A DNA stretch of 64,000 bases. Origin: a virus. Taxonomy: Duplodnaviria; Heunggongvirae; Uroviricota; Caudoviricetes. Shown in pieces: positions 10,099 to 50,568 of the stretch. The notes below the pieces were generated by a model, which worked only from the letters and a program-made list of their open reading frames with translations, was not told where the DNA came from and searched no databases. How positions within the stretch are numbered: the first letter of the stretch is position 1; each line of letters opens with the position of its first letter. The stretch is from IMG/VR virus record IMGVR_UViG_2667527592_000002; one strand, given 5' to 3'. Position numbers and translations under genes: made by a program.

Positions 10099-10447
10099 TT
10101 AATTTGCTGTTTCTAAATCGGAATGTATGATCTGCATCATCGACTGAAGTCATCCATTGCTGAAATTTTTAGTTGATCTTCCATGTTTTCAGGCTTATAT
10201 TCATGCCGTCGTAGCAAATTCTGCGACCGGGTTTGACAGCCTGAATACTTACGCGGACAACCGCACATTTCCGATATTGCGGTATTTTTGTGTCCGTAAA
10301 ACCACGTTACGCCCGAATTATGGTGGGGCGTGATGGGGAGGCTTCGGCCTGCTGGTTTCGTAAGTGCCAGTCTGTCAACCCTGTCACGTCCTGCCACCTG
10401 TTTGACAGCGGGTCGCAGGTTGTTTATCAACTTACGAGGCCGTAACT

Positions 10448-22279: not shown

Positions 22280-22290
22280 TGTGTTAGAAA
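22280..22290 (+). promoter_or_regulatory. TGTTAGAAAA-type recurrent motif
   Basis: tgtgttagaaa. Confidence 0.4.
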
Positions 22291-22436
22291 TCTAAAATCA
22301 CAATTCGAATGTATTGATTGTGGAGATAACTTAACATAGAATTTTCCTTGCTGGTGGGCGGTACCCACGTTTCGCTTGCTGGGCTTGATAGTCACTTATT
22401 GGTTATTGTTCGCCAACCAGCATTTAACAAATTAAA

Positions 22437-22448
22437 GTGTTAGAAAAG
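22437..22448 (+). promoter_or_regulatory. TGTTAGAAAA-type recurrent motif
   Basis: gtgttagaaaag. Confidence 0.4.
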
Positions 22449-23032
22449 TATGGTAATGCAAGAGCACGCTTTGGCACCGTGCAGGCCAAAGTTCAGCAGG
22501 TTTAGTGCGGAAAGTGGTTTCAGAGAGAGCACTTTGCGGAGTAAACGACAATACATGTTGAGCCACGGAAGGTCTTTTTAAGGTGTTCATTGATGATGGT
22601 CCGGCAGAGAGTAACGGTACATGCTGCATCTAATCATCAATGCACATCTTCAACATTAAGGAGGCATAGGGATTTTTGTGGCGGTTACCTTTTGCCCTGA
22701 GTCTCCTTAATGTTGCGGTAATGCACCTATGCGGATGTGGCCTTGCATTGTGTCTTGAAAGAATGGGGTAAGGCCGGGGATATCCCCAGGGGGAGGCACC
22801 CCCGCTGCAACGAACAGCCACAGACGGCAGTCGAGTGATGGAAACGTGTAAAGACTTTAAACCTCGTTACGGCTGGCGTGGCAAACGCGACAACCGAGAC
22901 AGAGCGGTGACGGGCGGAGAGAGTGCCGCATCAAGAAAGAAGCCGACTTGTGATCCCTTTCTGCGGGCATTTGAAAGTGAATCCAGCTCAGGCAGTCGGC
23001 TTCTTTCTTGTGTGAGATGTAGCGTATTTGCC

Positions 23033-23056
23033 CATCTTCGGGTGGGCTTTTTTAGG
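23033..23056 (+). terminator. hairpin with UUCG tetraloop plus T-run
   Basis: gcccatc-ttcg-ggtgggc + tttttt in ORF-free region upstream of tRNAs. Confidence 0.5.
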
Positions 23057-23513
23057 GTTTTCGTCATGGTTAGCGACTTTGCGGCGGTTTAGAAACCGAC
23101 CATTAAAGTAAATGCAAACGATGATCTGATGATGGTAGCGGCCTAAGAAGCCTGACGCCACGGGGTATGAGTCGTCCCCCGTCAAAAAATCGACCGCAGA
23201 GTGTCCCCGTCTGTGTATTAGGGAACGGGGAGGCATAACAGGCAAGGGCGCTGGTGTGATTAACCAGATGAATGAGAAGGGTCAGGTCTTTCTGGTCAGC
23301 GCCCTTACCTGTTACGTCCCTCCCGCGTAACAGCCATTGCTTGATGGTATATGGGAAAGTTTGTTGGTTACGGGTATATCCCGTCATGCTGAAGGCGCTA
23401 ATCACGCTGGAAGCCAGGGTTATGCATCCCCTGTTACTGAATTGCAGCCAGGGCGCGGTGCGCCGAAAAGCATACGGAGGTGGAAGCCCTCGCCGGAGAC
23501 GTACCCGGCAAGT

Positions 23514-23589
23514 GATGGTGTAGCTCAGCGGTTAGAGCGGTTGACTGTTAATCAACGGGTCGATGGTTCAAATCCATCCACCATCGCCA
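23514..23589 (+). tRNA. tRNA-Asn (anticodon GTT)
   Basis: 76 nt cloverleaf folded by hand; acceptor GATGGTG/CACCATC, T-loop TTCAAAT, anticodon loop CTGTTAA, encoded CCA. Confidence 0.9.
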
Positions 23590-23591
23590 AT

Positions 23592-23667
23592 GCCGGTTTA
23601 GCTCAGTTGGTAGAGCGCCTGCCTTGTAAGCAGGATGTCAGCGGTTCGAGTCCGTTAACCGGCACCA
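23592..23667 (+). tRNA. tRNA-Thr (anticodon TGT)
   Basis: 76 nt; acceptor GCCGGTT/AACCGGC, D-arm GCTCAGTTGGTAGAGC, anticodon loop CTTGTAA, CCA. Confidence 0.9.
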
Positions 23668-23677
23668 GCACAACAGG

Positions 23678-23757
23678 TAAGGGTATTTTGCGACGTCGGA
23701 GATCGCCGAGCTTGGCAGAGGGTTCGAATCCCTACGAAGTACCCTTACCGTTGTGAT
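23678..23757 (+). ncRNA. tRNA-like degenerate hairpin module (unit A)
   Basis: GGTAAGGGTA...GGTTCGAATCCC...TACCCTTACC: acceptor-like stem and T-loop-like element but no canonical cloverleaf and no CCA. Confidence 0.3.
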
Positions 23758-23889
23758 GAATGCGCAGGCTGATGCGCGAAAGACATTGCAGCTATTGCGG
23801 AAAAGAGCTGTCCGGCGGGGCAATTAAACGCCCGTGAGAGTCTGAAATAACCGCAAGCCGGAGATCAGCACCGGTCATCACAACACAAC

Positions 23890-23950
23890 AGGTAAGGGCA
23901 TTCTCCCTTATGGGGCTTGGCTTAAATGCATCGAGTGCTCTTACCGTTGT
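23890..23950 (+). ncRNA. hairpin module (unit B) sharing leader and trailer with unit A
   Basis: GGTAAGGGC...GCTCTTACC stem of about 9 bp; flanked by ggagatcagcacc leader and cgttgtgatgaa trailer. Confidence 0.25.
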
Positions 23951-24337
23951 GATGAAGTGCAGCTCTTTGAAGCAACCAGAAGATAAGCATCTGGCTTCAC
24001 AACATAAACCGCAGGAACGACCAATAAACGGTAGTCCGTATGGAGAACACCCCGTTGAGGAAGAGGCCTGGCCGGAACCGTAACCGGCACTACAACGTTG
24101 AGAACACTGGCGTAACGGGGTCATATCCCAATCTACGAATAAATGTTGCGTTGCAGCGTGACAACCAGTGTTCTCAACATTGTGGTGAATGCGTGTTGCT
24201 GGCGCGCAAGTCCGCCCTATGGCAACGAGGCGGCGTAGTAAATATCGATGCCTCAGTCATCAAGCGCACTGACCGGCCTTATGGGCTATGAAAAAAAGAG
24301 GCGCAGTCGGAGATCAGCACCGACCACCACAATCAAT

Positions 24338-24424
24338 GGAGAGTAGGGAGCATGGTGCTCAAGCGGTCTTGAAAACCGTCCCATTGCGCAAGCGATGATG
24401 GTTCGATTCCATTACTCTCCGCCA
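24338..24424 (+). tRNA. tRNA-Ser-like (anticodon TGA), long variable arm, atypical D-arm
   Basis: acceptor GGAGAGT/ACTCTCC, anticodon arm GCGGTCTTGAAAACCGT, T-loop TTCGATT, CCA; D-arm non-canonical. Confidence 0.6.
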
Positions 24425-24584
24425 TCGCAACGTTAAGAGTATTTGGCTAATTAAGCGAATGCCGGAAGCAGAACCGGATCACCAAATGCGTACAGGCGTC
24501 ATCGCCGCCCAGCCAGCCAAGTGCTCTTACCATTGCGGTGAATGCGGCTAAGCGCACGCGGAACAGTTAAAACAATCCTCCTTA

Positions 24585-24908
24585 GTGGTTAAGTCAAACA
24601 TCCCGGCGTTAATTGTTAACTGGTTAACGTCACCTGGAGGCACCAGGCACCGCAATCTAATAAAGTTTCAAGCAATGGGGTTTTTGTTGTCAGACTTCAG
24701 ATATAGATGGTTGTGGAAGGAGAGCCTGTACATAGTGCAGTTATTTCTTCCGCTATTTGTCTGCTTTGTCATGCTTCCTGAGCTGAAATACGCAATTTCA
24801 GACACTTTAAGCACTATCGTTACTTTTGTGTTTTATCTTTACTTTGATTACTTATTGAGCACTAAAATCAATGAATTATCCGAGGAAATGCAAGGTGGCT
24901 GTAAGTGA
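24585..24908 (+). CDS. small hydrophobic protein (start uncertain)
   Basis: ORF between tRNAs with two predicted TM helices. Confidence 0.25.
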   Translation: MVKSNIPALIVNWLTSPGGTRHRNLIKFQAMGFLLSDFRYRWLWKESLYIVQLFLPLFVCFVMLPELKYAISDTLSTIVTFVFYLYFDYLLSTKINELSEEMQGGCK

Positions 24909-24909
24909 T

Positions 24910-25038
24910 GGATTTTTGGGCGTTTGCCGATAAGAACCCTGGTTGGACATTTTTATTTTTGCTGGTGGTTGCATATGGGGTCGAGCAAGCGGCTAAAGCC
25001 TTACGCGGTTCTGGCAAAAAGCGTAAGCGGAATTAACA
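24910..25038 (+). CDS. small membrane protein (42 aa; below ORF-track cutoff)
   Basis: MDFWAFADKNPGWTFLFLLVVAYGVEQAAKALRGSGKKRKRN; one TM helix, basic tail. Confidence 0.25.
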
Positions 25039-25045
25039 GTAATCT

Positions 25046-25121
25046 GGCCCTTTAGCTCAGTGGTTAGAGCAGGCGACTCATAATCGCACGGTCACCGGTT
25101 CAAATCCGGTAGGGGCCACCA
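25046..25121 (+). tRNA. tRNA-Ile2-like (anticodon CAT, lysidine type) or tRNA-Met
   Basis: 76 nt; near-identical arms to E. coli ileX as recalled: GGCCCTTTAGCTCAGTGGTTAGAGCAGGCGACTCATAATCGC... Confidence 0.9.
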
Positions 25122-25575
25122 TATTTGGTTGTAACACGGCGTATGGCACATGCGTCGTTAGCGGTCTGGTGTAGCTGTTAGGTACCTTACTAACACTGCA
25201 TGGGCACATCAGGTAGCCGGAATGTGCAAGTCACCGCTGGAGGGATAGCGGACTCAGGGACTCACCATCCTGGCGATTCGGTGTGACAGCCGGAATAGCA
25301 CGGCGCACAACAGGAAAAGGCGTTTAATTAACGCGAGCGCCGTTTCCGTTGTGGTAATTGCGGCTATGCGCTCGTGACGAAGCCATTTTCATTCACTACG
25401 TTCTGATAAGTGACGTCGCCGGGAGTGGCTAACCTGGCAGGTGGAGGCACCACCGCCACAACTCCTTTCAATTCATCATATAGCCGCTCAGGCTGTACCC
25501 CTTAATTAATACGAAGTTACGACATCACTACCGGTACTTCCGGGGGATAGTCGCGCGTGTAAAAAAGGAGACGTT

Positions 25576-26151
25576 ATGTTAATGGCGAACGATAACGCAT
25601 ATGCAGAAGAAGATCTCATTTTGAGTGACTTCATAGGGAAGCGGGAACGCTGGACCCAAAAGCGAGAGGAACTTTACGCCTCATTAGTTCGCAAAGGCGT
25701 CAATATCGAAACCGCACAAAGCGGCGATATGACAGTGGTAAGCGTTGGATTGCACGGTGTAAGCGTGTCAGCAATCAATCATGAGCCATACGTTGCGTTA
25801 TCCGAGTCAATGGTAAGGTTAGTTAAGTTCCTGAAGTACACAGAAGCGAATAATGTAATCATTGGCAAAAAGAATATCCCTTTTTCCTCGGCTTTTTACT
25901 GGATGATGAAAGGGCTTGATGCCCGGCGGACATCATGGCCTAAAGGGAGCTATATATCGATGTTCCGTGGCAGCATTGGCAGCAAAGAAAAGCTCTTCGA
26001 ATTCTTGCCGGAAGAGGCATTCGATATTGTGGAAGGGTGCGATGTGATGGTGATGCCTCGCCTGGTAATGATGAATGGGGATTTACAGGCGCAGACAGAC
26101 TGGTTTGCAACTGGTGTGGATATTATCGCGACTGACTGGGAGGCTTTCTGA
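25576..26151 (+). CDS. hypothetical protein with DUF2829-like C-terminal region
   Basis: ...AFYWMMKGLDARRTSWPKGSYISM...QTDWFATGVDIIATDWEAF. Confidence 0.35.
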   Translation: MLMANDNAYAEEDLILSDFIGKRERWTQKREELYASLVRKGVNIETAQSGDMTVVSVGLHGVSVSAINHEPYVALSESMVRLVKFLKYTEANNVIIGKKNIPFSSAFYWMMKGLDARRTSWPKGSYISMFRGSIGSKEKLFEFLPEEAFDIVEGCDVMVMPRLVMMNGDLQAQTDWFATGVDIIATDWEAF

Positions 26152-28405: not shown

Positions 28406-29913
28406 TGGCTGGCGGGCGCAAGATTAAATGCGTCACCAGCGATCCACGCTGGCGCGATATGGTAATCAAATACCGCTACAACTTTACCCAGGCTGTTGTC
28501 GATATTTTTGGGATGTTCCCCTCCCACCAGCAGCAGCAGATCATTCAGTCAGTGCAGGAAACGGGGAGTAGGACGACCGTCACGTCCGGACACGGAACGG
28601 GGAAGTCGTCCCTTACCGCGATGTTGCTGTTGATTTTTATGATCCTGTTCCCCGATGCCCGTGTCATCATTGTTGCTAACAAGATAGGCCAGGTAAAAAC
28701 AGGCGTATTCAAATACGTTAAACAGTATTGGGCGAATGCAGTTAAGCGTCATGGGTGGTTGCAGACCTATTTTGTCCTCTCTGACACCATGTTTTATGAG
28801 CGCTCCCGTAAGGGGATTTGGGAAGTTCTCTGCAAAGGTTATCGACTCGGCAACGAAGAAGCGCTGGCGGGGGAACACGCGGCACATTTGCTTCTAATTC
28901 TGGACGAAGCATCTGGTATATCTGATAAGGCGATCGGCGTAATGACCGGTGCTCTTACTGAAGAAGATAACCGGATGTTGATGCTATCCCAGCCAACAAG
29001 GCCAAGTGGTTATTTCTACGATTCGCACCATTCTCAAGCAAAAACCCCAGACAACCCGAAAGGGATCTGGACAGCAATTGTTCTTAACTCGGAAGAATCA
29101 CCGTTCGTCACACCACAATTCATCAAGCAGAAGCTTCTGGAATATGGCGGGCGCGATTCTATTGAGTACATGGTCAAGGTGCTTGGTCAGTTCCCACGAG
29201 AAATTAACGGCTATTTGCTTGGTCGTGATGAATGCGATCGCGCTGCTCGCCGCAAGGTGTTGTTGGAGAAAAACTGGGGATGGGTGGCAACGGCTGACGT
29301 TGGTAATGGGCGAGATAAGTCGGTCCTCAACATCTGCAAAGTATCTGGTCACAGGGATAAGCGGCGCGTTGTTAACTTTAAGGTAATGGAGATGCCTGGC
29401 ACTATGGACCCATTGGCCTTTGCTGACTTCATATATAACGAATGTACGCCGGAAAAATACCCGAATATAACAATCGCGGTTGATGCTGATGGTTTTGGTT
29501 CTGATACGTGTGCGCAGTTGGTGCGTCGTGGTGCGAACCCGGTACGTATTCGGTGGGGAAAACCCATGTTTGCGAACAAAGACAGGGAGCGATTTGTTAA
29601 TCAGCGTGCCTACGCAAATATTATGGCGCGTGATGCCATAAAGTCAGGGCGTATGCGGATAGACAGTGACCCTAAAACGGCAGAGCAAGCGTCAAAAATC
29701 CCCTTTTTACTGAATGAAGAAGGGAAAATGGCGATGATGCGCAAAGAGCACATGCGGCAAAAGCTAAACATCAAATCGCCTGACCGATGGGATACCTACT
29801 GCTTCACTATGCTGGTGGACTATGTGCCTGCTAATGAAGATATTGGTGCCGAAATGGCAACTTTCCGAGATCAGGTTCTGGCGGATATCGAAATGCCGGA
29901 TCTGGATATATAA
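28405..29913 (+). CDS. terminase large subunit (PacB-like ATPase)
   Basis: Walker A TSGHGTGKSS, Walker B LLLILDEASG; 502 aa. Confidence 0.75.
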   Translation: MAGGRKIKCVTSDPRWRDMVIKYRYNFTQAVVDIFGMFPSHQQQQIIQSVQETGSRTTVTSGHGTGKSSLTAMLLLIFMILFPDARVIIVANKIGQVKTGVFKYVKQYWANAVKRHGWLQTYFVLSDTMFYERSRKGIWEVLCKGYRLGNEEALAGEHAAHLLLILDEASGISDKAIGVMTGALTEEDNRMLMLSQPTRPSGYFYDSHHSQAKTPDNPKGIWTAIVLNSEESPFVTPQFIKQKLLEYGGRDSIEYMVKVLGQFPREINGYLLGRDECDRAARRKVLLEKNWGWVATADVGNGRDKSVLNICKVSGHRDKRRVVNFKVMEMPGTMDPLAFADFIYNECTPEKYPNITIAVDADGFGSDTCAQLVRRGANPVRIRWGKPMFANKDRERFVNQRAYANIMARDAIKSGRMRIDSDPKTAEQASKIPFLLNEEGKMAMMRKEHMRQKLNIKSPDRWDTYCFTMLVDYVPANEDIGAEMATFRDQVLADIEMPDLDI

Positions 29914-49768: not shown

Positions 49769-50087
49769 TTTAAGTTGAATTGAAAATTTCTCCGATGTAC
49801 ATTCACTACCGATTGGCACACCGGTCAACTTTTTGAGACAAACTATTTAGTTTTTCGTATTATTGCCGCCGCCATACCTATGGCGGTGCAATATAGGTGG
49901 CTGAAAAGCCCCCGTTGACTCACGGTGTTCCAGCCTTTATTGCGCCGCCACCAGACCGTGGAACAGTCGATGGCGGCTCCGAAAGCAAGGAGTCACTACA
50001 CTATGAACAACTACAGTCTTTTCCCATCACTCGTCGTCCACCACTCACGCGATAATCTGCATTCTTTACTCGCGCTGGGGGTGTCAA

Positions 50088-50255
50088 AATGACTGTTCGC
50101 TACCTCAACTTTCAAATCAAGAACATTACTGGCGGTTGCTATGACTGGTTTGTCACTCTCGGAAAAGAAGTGATCACCGGGAAGCTGGATGAAGTGAAAG
50201 CTAAAGCAATGGCCTACGCCTGCAAGCAAGCCCGGAAAAAATCCGCCAAAGCATA
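50088..50255 (+). CDS. small hypothetical protein (55 aa; below ORF-track cutoff)
   Basis: hand translation MTVRYLNFQIKNITGGCYDWFVTLGKEVITGKLDEVKAKAMAYACKQARKKSAKA; RBS present. Confidence 0.3.
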
Positions 50256-50353
50256 AAATACTGACTGTTGCGCCCTGGCATTATCGTGGGGTATATTTCT
50301 ACGGCACCTTAGAAAAACGGGTGCCGGGATTGGAACCCCGGATAATGCAAAAG

Positions 50354-50376
50354 GCGACACAGACGCCGAAAGCGTC
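50354..50376 (+). terminator. rho-independent terminator
   Basis: gacgccgaaagcgtc + ttttttt. Confidence 0.6.
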
Positions 50377-50568
50377 TTTTTTTGTGTCATGCCATCGCAC
50401 AGCCATACGTAGCGTTTAGCTCAGAGATCAATGGTAGTGCTGGCTGGGCTGCCGAAAGGCAGGCCGGTTCCCTTTTGCGCCGGTAGTTCCAACCCAGTCA
50501 GTGCTACCGCCATTGAGATTGGAACCTCACGCGGTAGCTCCTTAAATTAGCAAAAGGAGGCTGCCAAT

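What the first reader, a model, noticed from the sequence alone, without database searches (positions are those of the whole stretch)
23668..25375. tRNA island interleaved with repeated leader/trailer motifs and tRNA-like hairpin modules
About 3.3 kb (22300..25575) has almost no coding capacity. Besides four tRNAs it carries at least five copies of a trailer motif, cRTTGyGGTGAATGCG (near 23749, 23943, 24179, 24531, 25349). A leader motif GCCGGAGAyCAGCACCG recurs near 23491, 23848, 24307 and 24461. Between leader and trailer sit long hairpins whose base is CACAACAGG...CCGTTGTG. Unit A has a T-loop-like GGTTCGAATCCC but no cloverleaf. The Ser-like tRNA sits in the same leader/trailer frame. This looks like a modular array of tRNA-derived structured RNAs, or protein-binding sites, rather than simple spacers.
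Basis: seen in the sequence. Interest (0 to 1): 0.7.

Follow-up and report, generated by a model that had tools for sequence, protein, structure and literature searches.

The report
Modular phage RNA cassettes between tRNAs
The gene-poor island of this P1/D6-like phage-plasmid is an array of conserved, self-folding RNA cassettes threaded between four tRNA genes. The cassettes include four relatives of the prophage small RNA STnc100 and, just upstream, an unannotated tmRNA-like tag module that phage P1 also carries.

Summary
The 'trailer' and 'leader' motifs are the 5' and 3' ends of one three-helix RNA, which I call the E element. Four complete copies lie on the + strand at 23751-23883, 24180-24332, 24533-24655 and 25349-25461. 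They alternate with long-stem modules of roughly 13-24 paired positions and with four tRNA genes.

The structure rests on covariation: 96.7% of cells paired and 14 of 18 pairs with compensatory changes across 96 distinct sequences. A 23-nt core occurs exactly in at least 120 viral contigs. One copy is present, unannotated, in 845 of 5,426 complete E. coli genomes.

E belongs to the same architectural superfamily as the Hfq-bound prophage sRNA STnc100. No window copy reaches Rfam's cut-off for that family.

Cassettes are gained and lost at module boundaries, and they are shared with lambdoid phages. There they sit just after cI or between Q and the holin gene.

Upstream, 23066-23207 is a tmRNA-like module: a 10-codon tag (ANDDLMMVAA) followed by a covarying pseudoknot. 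No tRNA-like acceptor domain was found for it. It is conserved in at least 100 phage contigs and in P1.

Function is inferred, not shown. The most likely reading is a co-transcribed precursor that host RNases cut into tRNAs and stable scaffolded sRNAs.

The parts
23066..23207 (+). tmRNA-like tag module. 5' stem-loop (CUUUG...CAAAG around GGUUU...AAACC), then UAAAU, then the 10-codon frame GCA AAC GAT GAT CTG ATG ATG GTA GCG GCC TAA (23111-23143, ANDDLMMVAA*), then a hairpin plus pseudoknot.
   Evidence: Model R2, built from 22 IMG/VR sequences without the window, scores 76.3 bits, E about 9e-18. The tag is always 10 codons with synonymous variation in 104 distinct phage copies. The pseudoknot is 100% paired with 2 of 4 pairs compensatory. 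Rfam tmRNA_permuted scores 24.1 bits, below its cut-off of 47.
23236..23312 (+). Long-stem module H0 (ACAGGCAAGGGCGC...GCGCCCUUACCUGU).
   Evidence: Folding z = -4.64, 0 of 200 shuffles. Same stem family as.
23334..23519 (+). Possible divergent E-like element (E0). Ends CCAUUGCUUG / CAAGUGAUGG pair, and a P3-like hairpin GCCGGAGACGUACCCGGC lies at 23491. The 3' strand overlaps the first bases of tRNA-Asn.
   Evidence: Only the MFE fold pairs the ends. Model R1 does not detect it. Inferred and weak.
23514..23589 (+). tRNA-Asn (GUU)
   Evidence: ARAGORN; Rfam tRNA 74.5 bits.
23592..23667 (+). tRNA-Thr (UGU)
   Evidence: ARAGORN; Rfam tRNA 74.9 bits.
23669..23757 (+). About 20 paired positions, capped by a tRNA-like insert: a D-arm-like hairpin GCGA[CGUCGGAGA]UCGC and a T-arm-like AGGG[UUCGAAU]CCCU. 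It has no anticodon arm.
   Evidence: z = -6.12. No tRNA call. The same insert is conserved after tag modules in other phages (L080 and L207).
23751..23883 (+). E element copy 1, class 1. P1 GUUGUGAUG/CAUCACAAC; P2 GCGCA[GGCUGA]UGCGC; variable centre; P3 GCCGG[AGAUCAGCA]CCGG.
   Evidence: R1 scores 88.1 bits, but this copy was in the seed. It is 97-98% identical to the PL-leader copy of lambdoid phages, with a compensated G-C to A-U change in P1. It is absent from D6 and P1, bounded by a 23-nt direct repeat.
23876..23955 (+). Long-stem module H_B (CAUCACAAC...GUUGUGAUG enclosing GGUAAGGGCAUUC.../...GAGUGCUCUUACC).
   Evidence: z = -6.89. Near-identical module upstream of tag modules in IMG/VR loci (L112).
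23946..24003 (+). GUUGUGA...UCACAAC encloses one small hairpin; there is no P2 or P3.
   Evidence: Sequence. Folding z = -0.73, not significant. Not detected by R1.
24088..24186 (+). Long-stem module H_C (CACUACAACGUUGAGAACACUGG...CCAGUGUUCUCAACAUUGUGGUG).
   Evidence: z = -7.06. Conserved in D6 and P1.
24180..24332 (+). E element copy 3, class 1. P1 AUUGUGGUG/CACCACAAU.
   Evidence: R1 scores 62.5 bits, seed member. Homologous copies in D6 (L001 4705-4848) and P1 (L002 3964-4063).
24338..24424 (+). tRNA-Ser (UGA). It sits between the 3' strand of E3's closing helix and the 5' strand of module H_D.
   Evidence: ARAGORN. Rfam's best model is tRNA-Sec, 44.6 bits against a cut-off of 47.
24425..24540 (+). 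Long-stem module H_D (UCGCAAC.GUUAAGAGUAUUUGGCU...AGCCAAGUGCUCUUACCAUUGCG). Its cap is a third E-like variant carrying hairpin GCCGG[AAGCAGAA]CCGG.
   Evidence: z = -4.29. The same insert occurs as a P1-closed element in IMG/VR loci L142, L143 and L185.
24533..24655 (+). E element copy 4, class 2 (STnc100-like). P1 UUGCGGUG/CACCGCAA; 3' hairpin CCUGG[AGGCA]CCAGG.
   Evidence: Rfam STnc100 scores 39.4 bits, E 3.5e-6, against a cut-off of 47. R1 scores 48.1 bits, seed member.
25046..25121 (+). tRNA with CAU anticodon (ARAGORN calls it Met; annotated as Ile2 in P1 and in RefSeq relatives).
25124..25300 (+). Leader-like segment. Its first ~46 nt (UUGGUUGUAACACGGCGUAUGGCACAUGCGUCGUUAGCGGUCUGG) match the start of the PL leader of mEp460/Stx2a-type lambdoid phages.
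25305..25356 (+). Short long-stem module H_E (GCACAACAGGAAAAGGCG...CGCCGUUUCCGUUGUGG).
   Evidence: MFE fold. Same base motif as H_A and H_B.
25349..25461 (+). E element copy 5, class 2. P1 GUUGUGG/CCACAAC; 3' hairpin GGUGG[AGGCA]CCACC. It lies directly upstream of a Tad2-family gene.
   Evidence: R1 scores 23.0 bits, E 0.001, seed member. MFE equals the centroid fold with all helices. Tad2 annotation in relatives.

Best explanation
From about 23.07 to 25.46 kb the + strand encodes one co-oriented chain of self-folding RNA cassettes that share a transcript with four tRNA genes. Three kinds of cassette alternate.

(1) E elements, about 115-155 nt here. A closing helix P1 has a variable outer part plus GGUG/CACC. 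Three unpaired bases (AAU) follow, then a D-arm-like hairpin P2, then a hypervariable centre, then a hairpin P3 that abuts the 3' strand of P1.

(2) Long-stem modules of roughly 13-24 paired positions. The 3' strand of each runs straight into the 5' strand of the next P1. Their caps hold tRNA-like or other small inserts.

(3) Genuine tRNAs.

E belongs to the same architectural superfamily as the Hfq-bound prophage sRNAs STnc100 and PasD.

Shown here: the elements exist, their helices covary as RNA, they are widespread in phages, and they are exchanged as cassettes at module boundaries.

Inferred: the array is made as one long precursor (in P1 it lies in the leader of the C1-repressed ban operon). 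Host RNases then cut it, RNase III in the long stems and RNase P or RNase E at tRNA and tRNA-like junctions, much as rRNA-tRNA operons are processed. The cuts would release the tRNAs and stable, stem-closed E RNAs. Each E RNA would use its conserved scaffold for stability, processing or Hfq handling, and its variable centre to base-pair with host or phage RNAs in trans.
For: One element, not two motifs. The 5' and 3' motifs are linked by a helix whose outer part changes in step, for example UUGAUCUGGUG/CACCAGAUCAA, GUGUAGGUG/CACCUACAC and UUGCGGUG/CACCGCAA.

Covariation. In alignment A1, 97.4% of cells pair and 12 of 22 pairs have double changes. No shuffle of 500 reached the observed value, and slid controls gave 28-54%. 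In A2, 96 distinct sequences aligned by the covariance model give 96.7% paired, 14 of 18 pairs with double changes, G-U pairs present, and slid controls at 29-56%.

Spread. The exact 23-mer occurs in at least 120 IMG/VR contigs. It is found in Ackermannviridae, Klebsiella siphophages, coliphage ep3 and lambdoid phages. E1 is present in 845 of 5,426 E. coli genomes and is never annotated.

Independent sRNA-gene form. In ep3 and in a true STnc100 locus the core has its own promoter-like site and terminator. An intrinsic terminator lies within 60 nt downstream in 20 of 87 copies, against 1 of 79 controls.

Link to STnc100. Rfam STnc100 matches E4 at 39.4 bits. Model R1, built almost wholly from class-1 copies, finds a 143-bit STnc100 at E 0.006. 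STnc100 and PasD are reported as abundant Hfq-associated prophage sRNAs (bioRxiv 10.64898/2026.05.13.724894; PMC12370729).

Variable centre on a fixed scaffold.

Processing-stem analogy. The long stems fold with z = -4.3 to -7.1. They have a conserved bulged A, a U-U mismatch and a U-G wobble, and compensatory variants exist.

Cassette exchange. The 174-nt E1 block is present here but absent from D6 and P1, and it is bounded by a 23-nt repeat at the module edge. Relatives swap tRNA sets and cargo genes within the same frame.
Against: No transcript, processing or Hfq data exist for these copies. All functional steps are inferred.

None of the four window copies has a terminator of its own, and no strong sigma-70 promoter was found inside the array.

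The E elements themselves are only modestly more stable than shuffled sequence: z = -1.6 to -2.5.

The window copies were in the seed of R1, so their R1 scores are not independent. Independent support comes from Rfam for E4 and from homologues elsewhere.

The outer 3-6 nt of P1's 5' strand can also pair with the 5' base of the preceding long stem, and both partners covary. This three-way competition is not explained by simple processing.

Only about 12% of E elements in other phages lie near tRNAs. The tRNA link is therefore local to this kind of island.
Confidence: 0.4

Rival explanations
1. Cis-acting transcription elements. The folded E RNA, alone or with the preceding stem, would modify RNA polymerase or block Rho. 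That would let transcription traverse a long, untranslated, highly structured array and its downstream terminators. This is functionally like the HK022 put RNAs or the rRNA antitermination leaders.
For: In lambdoid relatives E lies just after cI, in a roughly 700-nt gene-free PL leader where lambda has nutL and N. A terminator-like hairpin follows, and only then the early-left genes.

The commonest upstream neighbours are cI-like repressors (13) and Q antiterminators (9); the commonest downstream neighbours are holins.

A terminator lies within 60 nt downstream in 23% of copies.

In this window more than 2 kb of untranslated RNA precedes the next long ORFs, a natural Rho target. The array begins right after a strong terminator at 23030-23054.
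Against: There is no sequence or model similarity to HK022 putL or putR. R1 finds nothing there, and the sequences read are unrelated.

E also occurs as the body of short terminated sRNA genes, namely STnc100 and the ep3 locus.

Where Q is present, Q itself explains read-through.

Four to five copies in one array are more than a single loading site needs.
Confidence: 0.2
2. tRNA-like molecules acting in translation. In this reading E (P1 + P3 as an acceptor/T-arm stack, P2 as a D-arm) and the T-arm-bearing stem caps are tRNA mimics. They could serve as decoys for tRNA-targeting host defences. Alternatively they could be the missing tRNA-like partner of the upstream tmRNA-like tag module, giving a split trans-translation system.
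For: Layout: P3 abuts P1 with no spacer, as the T-stem abuts the acceptor stem in a tRNA. P1 is 7-9 bp in 70 of 92 copies.

The P2 loop starts with GG, and GCUG in that loop is complementary to the nearly invariant CAGC of the P3 loop.

CCA lies within 5 nt after P1 in 24 of 79 copies, against a 5.4% background (p about 2e-12). An exact NCCA occurs in 11 of 79.

Tag modules are followed at fixed spacing by a long-stem module (48 of 104) and by an E element 160-210 nt later.

The array sits among real tRNAs and next to anti-defence cargo (Tad2).
Against: No E or stem cap scores as a tRNA or tmRNA.

No G3:U70 pair is present in any inferred acceptor stem (sequence reading).

None of the four window copies has NCCA.

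The tag lies 5' of E, a topology unlike both one-piece and permuted tmRNAs.

No conserved pairing partner was found for the 5' end of the tag module.

The class-2 P3 loop has only 5 nt.

The CCA counts come from related, CA-rich sequences.
Confidence: 0.15
3. DNA-level repeats. The inverted repeats would be transposon-like ends (MITE) or recombination or protein-binding sites that shuffle tRNA and cargo cassettes. Any RNA structure would be incidental.
For: The E1 cassette is gained or lost between 23-nt direct repeats. Nearly identical cassettes are shared by P1-like and lambdoid phages. Relatives carry different tRNAs and cargo genes in the same frame.
Against: All three helices show compensatory changes and G-U/U-G pairs, which would be A-C mismatches on the other strand. 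All copies share the transcribed strand with the tRNAs. The internal hairpins P2 and P3 are conserved, not only the ends. No transposase or integrase is associated with them. Recombination at the repeats is better read as a by-product of sequence identity.
Confidence: 0.05
4. Decayed tRNA duplications or plain processing spacers with no function of their own.
For: One stem cap keeps a T-arm-like hairpin (23721-23732). Two degenerate hairpins (23491, 24461) and one truncated copy (23946-24003) look like decay.
Against: An exact 23-nt core is kept in at least 120 viral contigs from unrelated phage groups. Covariation is strong. About 88% of copies are not near any tRNA.
Confidence: 0.02
5. Sponge for the host sRNA GcvB. 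The CA-rich strands (CACAACA) would mimic GcvB R1 targets, as the prophage anti-sRNA AgvB does.
For: CACAACA occurs 5 times on the + strand of the island, against 0.46 expected from its share of the window. It is the GcvB R1 target consensus used by AgvB (PMC4104026). The 5' strand of E1's P1 (GUUGUGAUG) equals the start of GcvB R1 as I recall it; I did not verify that sequence here.
Against: Nearly all of these motifs are base-paired within P1 or the long stems. In other family members the same positions covary to unrelated sequences. Rfam AgvB does not match the window.
Confidence: 0.05

Closest known systems
STnc100 (Rfam RF02076) and PasD: Hfq-associated sRNAs of lambdoid prophages
   Same: Same core. 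A closing helix ends in GGUG/CACC, followed by (G)AAU and a 5' hairpin. The middle is variable. A 3' hairpin with a GGAG-containing loop abuts the closing helix. The genomic niche is also shared (next to Q and the lysis genes). E4 matches the Rfam model at 39.4 bits. My class-1 model finds a genuine 143-bit STnc100.
   Different: No window copy reaches the Rfam cut-off of 47 bits, and class-1 copies give no Rfam match at all. The window copies have no leader, terminator or U-tail of their own. They are chained with long stems and tRNAs. Class 1 has different loops, GGCUGA and AGAUCAGCA. The function of STnc100 and PasD is itself unknown.
tmRNA (SsrA), including two-piece permuted forms and phage-borne variants
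   Same: This applies to the upstream module only. The frame starts GCA AAC GA, is 10 codons long and ends in hydrophobic-A-A/V-A plus a stop, like ANDENYALAA. It is preceded by UAAAU and followed by a covarying H-type pseudoknot.
   Different: No acceptor stem with G3:U70, no T-arm/CCA end paired to a 5' end, and no call by ARAGORN or by Rfam at threshold. Local alignment to E. coli ssrA scores no better than shuffled sequence. The 2025 tmRNA database reports CDS-less tRNA-domain-only forms, such as that of phage DS6A. The reverse, a tag module without a tRNA-like domain, is not mentioned in the passages of that paper I retrieved (PMC11915505).
HK022 putL/putR antiterminator RNAs
   Same: In lambdoid relatives the position is the same: a structured RNA in the leader just downstream of the early promoter and upstream of terminators, in phages with no N gene annotated or evident at the position lambda has it.
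   Different: No sequence or structural-model similarity. E also forms free-standing terminated sRNA genes and occurs several times per array.
P1/P7 C4 and P4 CI RNAs (Rfam C4, RF01695)
   Same: Small phage RNAs cut out of a longer leader transcript. From my own knowledge, their maturation by RNase P depends on a tRNA-like shape. The same phage family is involved.
   Different: This is a different family. The window's C4 and isrK matches lie at 10195-10401 and 49876-50514, not in the island. C4 acts by antisense pairing within its own operon.
rRNA-tRNA operons and the T4 tRNA cluster with its two stable RNAs of unknown function (established knowledge)
   Same: Structured RNAs and tRNAs are made as one precursor. 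Long stems formed by flanking sequences bracket the products and serve as RNase III sites. In T4, extra stable RNAs are co-processed with the tRNAs.
   Different: No homology was tested or claimed. Here the bracketing stems are themselves a conserved sequence family with a bulged A and a U-U mismatch.

Membership tests
STnc100 (Rfam RF02076) | Covariance-model score at or above the gathering cut-off (47 bits) | tested here: not met
   E4 scores 39.4 bits. E1, E3 and E5 give no match at E up to 1. A true member in L103 scores 143 bits.
STnc100 (Rfam RF02076) | Core architecture: closing helix ending in GGUG/CACC, GAAU, a 5' hairpin, and a 3' hairpin GGAGGCACC abutting the helix | tested here: met
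   E4 aligns to model positions 31-147. E5 has the same 3' hairpin. R1 and STnc100 recognise each other's members.
STnc100 (Rfam RF02076) | Free-standing sRNA gene with its own 5' leader and Rho-independent terminator | tested here: not met
   No terminator follows any window copy. Model positions 1-30 and 148-206 are unmatched.
STnc100 / PasD | Hfq association and trans base-pairing | not testable with these tools
   Known only from the literature, and only for other members.
E-element superfamily (defined here) | P1, P2 and P3 helices supported by covariation | tested here: met
   Caveat: the four window copies were in the seed alignment.
tRNA | Cloverleaf detected by ARAGORN or by Rfam tRNA (29 bits or more) | tested here: not met
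   Met only by the four annotated genes. H_A, the other stem caps and the E elements give nothing above E about 2.
tmRNA | Tag reading frame with an alanine resume codon, a hydrophobic ..AA-type C-terminus and an in-frame stop | tested here: met
   23111-23143 encodes ANDDLMMVAA*. In 104 distinct phage copies the tag is always 10 codons, with synonymous and stop-codon variation.
tmRNA | Pseudoknot(s) flanking the tag | tested here: met
   The downstream H-type pseudoknot is 100% paired, with 2 of 4 pairs compensatory. A second one is suggested by the CACUG/CGGUG to CAGUG/CGCUG change. The upstream element is a nested stem-loop, not a proven pseudoknot.
tmRNA | tRNA-like domain: acceptor stem formed by the 5' and 3' ends with G3:U70, a T-arm and NCCA | tested here: not met
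   ARAGORN finds no tmRNA in the window or in any locus scanned. Rfam scores of 11-27 bits fall below cut-offs of 47-84. No conserved partner for the 5' end was found.
tmRNA | Alanylation, SmpB binding and tagging of stalled proteins | not testable with these tools
   Needs experiments.
HK022 put RNA | Two-stem put fold and sequence | tested here: not met
   R1 finds no match at putL or putR. The sequences read directly are unrelated.
HK022 put RNA | Acts in cis on RNA polymerase (beta' zinc-binding domain) to suppress termination | not testable with these tools
   Only the positional analogy in lambdoid relatives is available.
C4 / P4 CI antisense RNA (RF01695) | Rfam C4 model match | tested here: not met
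   C4 matches lie elsewhere in the window (10316, 49876, 50427). None is in the island.
MITE / integron attC-like DNA repeat | Conserved terminal repeats acting as DNA, strand-independent, with an associated transposase or integrase | tested here: not met
   The terminal repeats covary rather than stay fixed, and they include G-U pairs. No such enzyme is found among the neighbours.

The most novel reading that the evidence does not exclude
P1-like, lambdoid, Klebsiella sipho- and Ackermannviridae phages would carry a split, non-canonical trans-translation system. One part is a tag-encoding, pseudoknotted 'mRNA-like' module without an acceptor domain (window 23066-23207, also in phage P1). The other part is supplied separately, by the tRNA-shaped E elements or by the T-arm-bearing stem caps that follow the tag at fixed spacing. 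Together they would let the phage rescue or re-tag stalled ribosomes, or subvert host tmRNA-SmpB, during infection.
Probability: 0.12. Interest if true: 0.92.

Novelty: new variant of a known kind. Interest (0 to 1): 0.7.

Why it matters
Four points.

1. Phage P1 and its relatives are among the most studied phages. Even so, this array, the tag module and their relatives in about one in six complete E. coli genomes carry no annotation. Two predicted P1 ORFs (plp, upl) lie antisense to it.

2. STnc100 and PasD stop being oddities of pathogenic E. coli. They become members of a much larger phage RNA superfamily with a fixed three-helix scaffold and a hypervariable centre. That makes their unknown function approachable by comparison and by swapping centres.

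3. The array shows how phages package tRNAs, small RNAs and anti-defence cargo as exchangeable cassettes.

4. The tag module is either a new form of tmRNA or a new kind of tmRNA mimic. Either would bear on how phages deal with ribosome stalling and host quality control.

Tried and rejected
- **put-like homology.** I fetched the HK022 immunity region, read putL and putR, and ran R1. There was no match.
- **Obligatory tRNA linkage.** Only about 12% of E elements in viral contigs have a same-strand tRNA within 300 nt.
- **A tRNA-like domain for the tag module.** ARAGORN on all loci, Rfam at permissive thresholds, a duplex search for a partner of the conserved 5' GUUUUCG segment (positions inconsistent) and local alignment to E. 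coli ssrA (no better than shuffles) all came up empty. An apparent CAGCUCCAC match to the ssrA 3' end turned out to be part of a covarying hairpin.
- **Alternative reading frame over the tag.** The overlapping AUG frame (MQT...) varies in length from 5 to 9 codons and is broken by changes that are synonymous in the GCA frame. Rejected.
- **AgvB-type GcvB sponge.** The motif is enriched but base-paired, and it covaries away in other members.
- **CsrA-site or Shine-Dalgarno mimicry by the GGA(G) of P3.** Considered from the sequence only. The GG is paired. Not pursued.
- **Extra trailer-like motif at 29222.** Not an E element by R1.
- **Literature.** No paper in the held library contains the core motifs or the tag peptide as text. 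The PasD sequence was not retrievable. The P1 genome paper could not be read.
- **Thermodynamics alone.** It does not establish the E fold (z = -1.6 to -2.5). The case rests on covariation.

Full report
**Setting.** The window is a P1-like phage-plasmid. Its closest phage record is D6: 96.8% identity over 80% of 22280-25575. About 71 E. coli plasmids carry most of the same island. In D6 the island lies between pmgS and the lpa/pacA block. In P1 the homologous stretch is the long leader of the C1-repressed ban operon: Pban, a 'dicF-like region', trnA, trnT, tciABC, trnI, ban.

**Checking the observation.**
- ARAGORN and Rfam confirm four tRNA genes on the + strand.
- The 'trailer' motif has four good copies (23750, 24179, 24532, 25348) and one copy that shares only its first 11 nt (23946).
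- The 'leader' motif has two good copies (23857, 24306). Two further sites are degenerate hairpins of the same shape (23491, 24461). Two have a different 3' hairpin, GGAGGCACC (24636, 25443).
- The long hairpins and the T-loop-like GGTTCGAATCCC are present.
- So the features are real and co-oriented, but the stated copy numbers are generous.

**Re-parsing the motifs.** Rfam gave the first clue. A sub-threshold STnc100 match (39.4 bits against a cut-off of 47) spans 24534-24654. It starts at a 'trailer' and ends at a GGAGGCACC hairpin, with the two ends paired. The other copies are built the same way.
- A closing helix P1 has a variable outer part plus GGUG/CACC.
- Then come AAU, hairpin P2 (GCGCA[GGCUGA]UGCGC), a variable centre, and hairpin P3 (GCCGG[AGAUCAGCA]CCGGC), which abuts the 3' strand of P1.
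- Complete copies lie at 23751-23883, 24180-24332, 24533-24655 and 25349-25461.

**Is the fold real?**
- The 23-mer GGTGAATGCGCAGGCTGATGCGC occurs exactly in at least 120 IMG/VR contigs. Parts of it are about 94% identical in unrelated phages: Ackermannviridae, Klebsiella siphophages, coliphage ep3 and lambdoid phages.
- The position of the 3' strand of P1 is fixed by the adjacent conserved P3. At that position the sequence changes in step with the 5' strand, for example UUGAUCUGGUG/CACCAGAUCAA and GUGUAGGUG/CACCUACAC.
- On a MAFFT alignment of 38 sequences, 97.4% of cells pair and 12 of 22 pairs show double changes. None of 500 shuffles reaches this, and sliding one strand gives 28-54%.
- On 96 distinct sequences aligned with covariance model R1, the figures are 96.7% paired, 14 of 18 pairs with double changes, and 29-56% when slid. 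G-U pairs are present. That marks selection on RNA, on this strand.
- Two caveats. I chose seed sequences partly by P1 pairing, and A2 is fitted to the model. The fixed anchor next to P3 and the P2/P3 covariation are independent of that choice.
- Thermodynamic stability of E alone is unremarkable: z = -1.6 to -2.5.
- GCUG in the P2 loop is complementary to the nearly invariant CAGC in the P3 loop. This suggests a loop-loop contact. It is untested, because the sampling fixed the P2 loop.

**Relation to known RNAs.**
- R1, built almost wholly from class-1 copies, detects a genuine STnc100 that scores 143 bits in Rfam (E 0.006). That RNA has the same core plus its own leader and terminator.
- Conversely, class-1 copies get no Rfam match at all.
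- A 2026 preprint reports structural homology between STnc100 and PasD. It describes both as abundant Hfq-associated prophage sRNAs next to Q and lysis genes, with function unknown. Another paper places STnc100 75 nt downstream of stx2.
- E is therefore a much broader superfamily that includes STnc100. The window copies fail the formal Rfam membership test.
- HK022 put RNAs are unrelated in sequence and by model. C4 and isrK RNAs occur elsewhere in the window.

**The second module type.** The long stems form a family of their own. The consensus is CACAAC-A-GG-U-AAGAGCAUUG on the 5' side and CAGUGCUCUU-U-CC-GUUGUG on the 3' side.
- The stem has a bulged A, a U-U mismatch and a U-G wobble. Compensatory variants occur, such as UAAGAUAACUG/CAGUUAUCUUA and UAAGCUGCUUG/ACAGGCAGCUUU.
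- The five window copies that were folded have z = -4.3 to -7.1.
- The caps differ. H_A has a D-arm-like and a T-arm-like hairpin but no anticodon arm, and the same cap recurs in other phages. H_D encloses a third E-like variant. H_B and H_E have small caps.
- The 3' strand of each stem runs directly into the 5' strand of the next P1. The outer 3-6 nt of P1 can therefore pair either upstream or downstream, and both partners covary. I have no tested explanation for this three-way arrangement.

**Cassette behaviour.**
- Compared with D6 and P1, the window has an extra 174 nt (23761-23934: the E1 body plus the start of H_B). The block is bounded by a 23-nt direct repeat at the module edge.
- E1 is 97-98% identical to a copy in the PL leader of mEp460/Stx2a-type lambdoid phages, with one compensated change in P1.
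- E1 is present, unannotated, in 845 of 5,426 complete E. coli genomes.
- Relatives carry Arg-Tyr-Thr instead of Asn-Thr, and tciA/B/C or an SPFH gene between E4 and the last tRNA.
- The gene after E5 belongs to the Tad2 anti-Thoeris family.

**Context elsewhere.**
- In viral contigs the commonest same-strand upstream neighbours of E are cI-like S24 repressors (13) and Q antiterminators of two Pfam families (9). Downstream neighbours are holins (10) and Tad2-like proteins (4).
- Twenty of 87 copies have an intrinsic terminator within 60 nt, against 1 of 79 controls.
- Only about 12% lie near tRNAs.
- E is thus typically a leader or sRNA module at the start of the early-left and late operons. 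The tRNA-interleaved form seen here is one deployment of it.

**Mechanism.** Nothing here shows function. I favour (0.4) a co-transcribed precursor that host RNases cut at the long stems and at tRNA-like junctions. The cuts would yield tRNAs plus stable E RNAs whose fixed scaffold carries a variable, target-specifying centre.
- This fits the free-standing sRNA forms, the Hfq literature on STnc100 and PasD, the hypervariable centre, and the analogy with rRNA operons.
- Cis-acting antitermination or anti-Rho action (0.2) fits the positions after PL and Q, the downstream terminators, and the length of untranslated RNA. It lacks any likeness to put.
- A tRNA-mimic role (0.15) fits the layout: P1 of 7-9 bp stacked on P3, and CCA within 5 nt after P1 in 24 of 79 copies against a 5.4% background. 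But nothing scores as a tRNA, and the window copies lack CCA.
- DNA-level repeats, decayed tRNAs and a GcvB sponge are unlikely, for the reasons given under each rival.

**Noticed upstream: a tmRNA-like module.** Position 23111-23143 reads GCA AAC GAT GAT CTG ATG ATG GTA GCG GCC TAA (ANDDLMMVAA*).
- A pattern taken from three phages found 112 viral stretches. In 104 distinct copies the frame is always 10 codons. There are 11 peptides of the form AN(D/E)xxxL(A/M/I)(A/V)A. Third-position changes are synonymous, and all three stop codons are used.
- The module has a conserved 5' stem-loop, UAAAU before the resume codon, and a downstream H-type pseudoknot that is 100% paired with 2 of 4 pairs compensatory.
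- A model built without the window scores 76.3 bits on 23066-23207. It also finds the module in phage P1 itself (NC_005856, about 68896-69037), in D6 and in two plasmids.
- ARAGORN calls no tmRNA, and the Rfam tmRNA models stay below threshold.
- I found no acceptor/T-arm domain or pairing partner for it.
- In the passages I retrieved, the 2025 tmRNA database paper lists 79 phage tmRNAs and some forms with only the tRNA domain, and mentions no tag-only form.
- In 48 of 104 copies a long-stem module starts about 79 nt after the stop, and an E element follows at +160-210. The tag, stem and E modules are therefore often one unit. Whether they cooperate is open.

**Verdict.** The finding is real and more interesting than 'spacers'. 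It is a conserved, exchangeable array of structured phage RNAs. It extends a known but uncharacterised sRNA family and sits next to a non-canonical tmRNA-like module. Function remains inferred.

Noticed in passing
window 23066-23207 (+); tag frame 23111-23143; also P1 NC_005856 ~68896-69037 (L002 3042-3183): An unannotated tmRNA-like tag module: a 10-codon ANDDLMMVAA* frame plus a covarying pseudoknot, with no detectable tRNA-like domain. It is conserved in at least 100 phage contigs, in phage P1 and in D6. Standard tmRNA tools do not call it.
   Followed up: yes
P1 locus L002 3618-4187 (plp, upl, - strand); window ORFs 23638-23823 and 23792-24124 (-): The predicted P1 genes plp ('putative lipoprotein') and upl lie antisense to the conserved long-stem and E RNAs. 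In this window the ORF is split by the 174-nt E1 cassette. They may be spurious ORFs.
   Followed up: partly
window 24338-24424 (+): The tRNA-Ser(UGA) aligns best to Rfam's tRNA-Sec model (44.6 bits, cut-off 47), with a long acceptor stem and a 6-bp D-stem. ARAGORN places the anticodon at position 33, and the D6 record notes that tRNAscan-SE could not call it. It may be a Sec-like ('allo-tRNA'-type) fold carrying a serine anticodon.
   Followed up: no
window 22923-23054 (+): An sRNA-like long hairpin followed by a strong intrinsic terminator (GCCCATCTTCGGGTGGGCTTTTTT, 23030-23054). It is homologous to P1's annotated 'dicF-like region'. The tag module starts immediately after its T-run. The only sigma-70-like site in the island is at 22314-22342.
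   Followed up: partly
window 25576-26151 (+): The first ORF after E5 is annotated in RefSeq relatives as a Thoeris anti-defence Tad2 family protein. Tad2-like genes also follow E elements in four IMG/VR loci.
   Followed up: partly
window 10195-10401 and 49876-50514 (+): There are two separate sets of C4 antisense RNA, isrK and c4-a1b1 matches (76.7, 69.6 and 40.2 bits for C4). That means two immI-like antisense control loci in one window.
   Followed up: no
window 23857-23874 (+) and other P3 hairpins: The P3 hairpin GCCGGAGAUCAGCACCGG is nearly identical to positions 30-47 of Rfam's rydB model (GCCGGAGAUAAGCGCCGG). The core-genome sRNA RydB may carry a relic of this hairpin.
   Followed up: no
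window 23669, 23879, 23884, 23998, 25306 (+): CACAACA, the GcvB R1 target consensus used by the prophage anti-sRNA AgvB, occurs five times in the island (0.46 expected). Almost every copy lies within a helix.
   Followed up: partly
L004 2360-3139 and L003 2360-3082 (Stx2a_1447 and mEp460): These lambdoid phages have a roughly 700-nt gene-free PL leader (conserved 5' segment, hairpin module, E element, terminator-like long hairpin) where lambda has nutL and N. No N-like gene is evident before the terminator.
   Followed up: partly
L006 650-2720 (Klebsiella phage Magnus): About 2 kb annotated as a string of tiny hypothetical proteins is in fact a chain of tag, long-stem, E and other structured RNA modules, including T-arm-like hairpins and 20-bp perfect stems.
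   Followed up: partly
window 29222-29236 (+): An isolated trailer-like 15-mer (GTCGTGATGAATGCG, 2 mismatches) lies outside the island. Model R1 does not detect it as an E element.
   Followed up: partly
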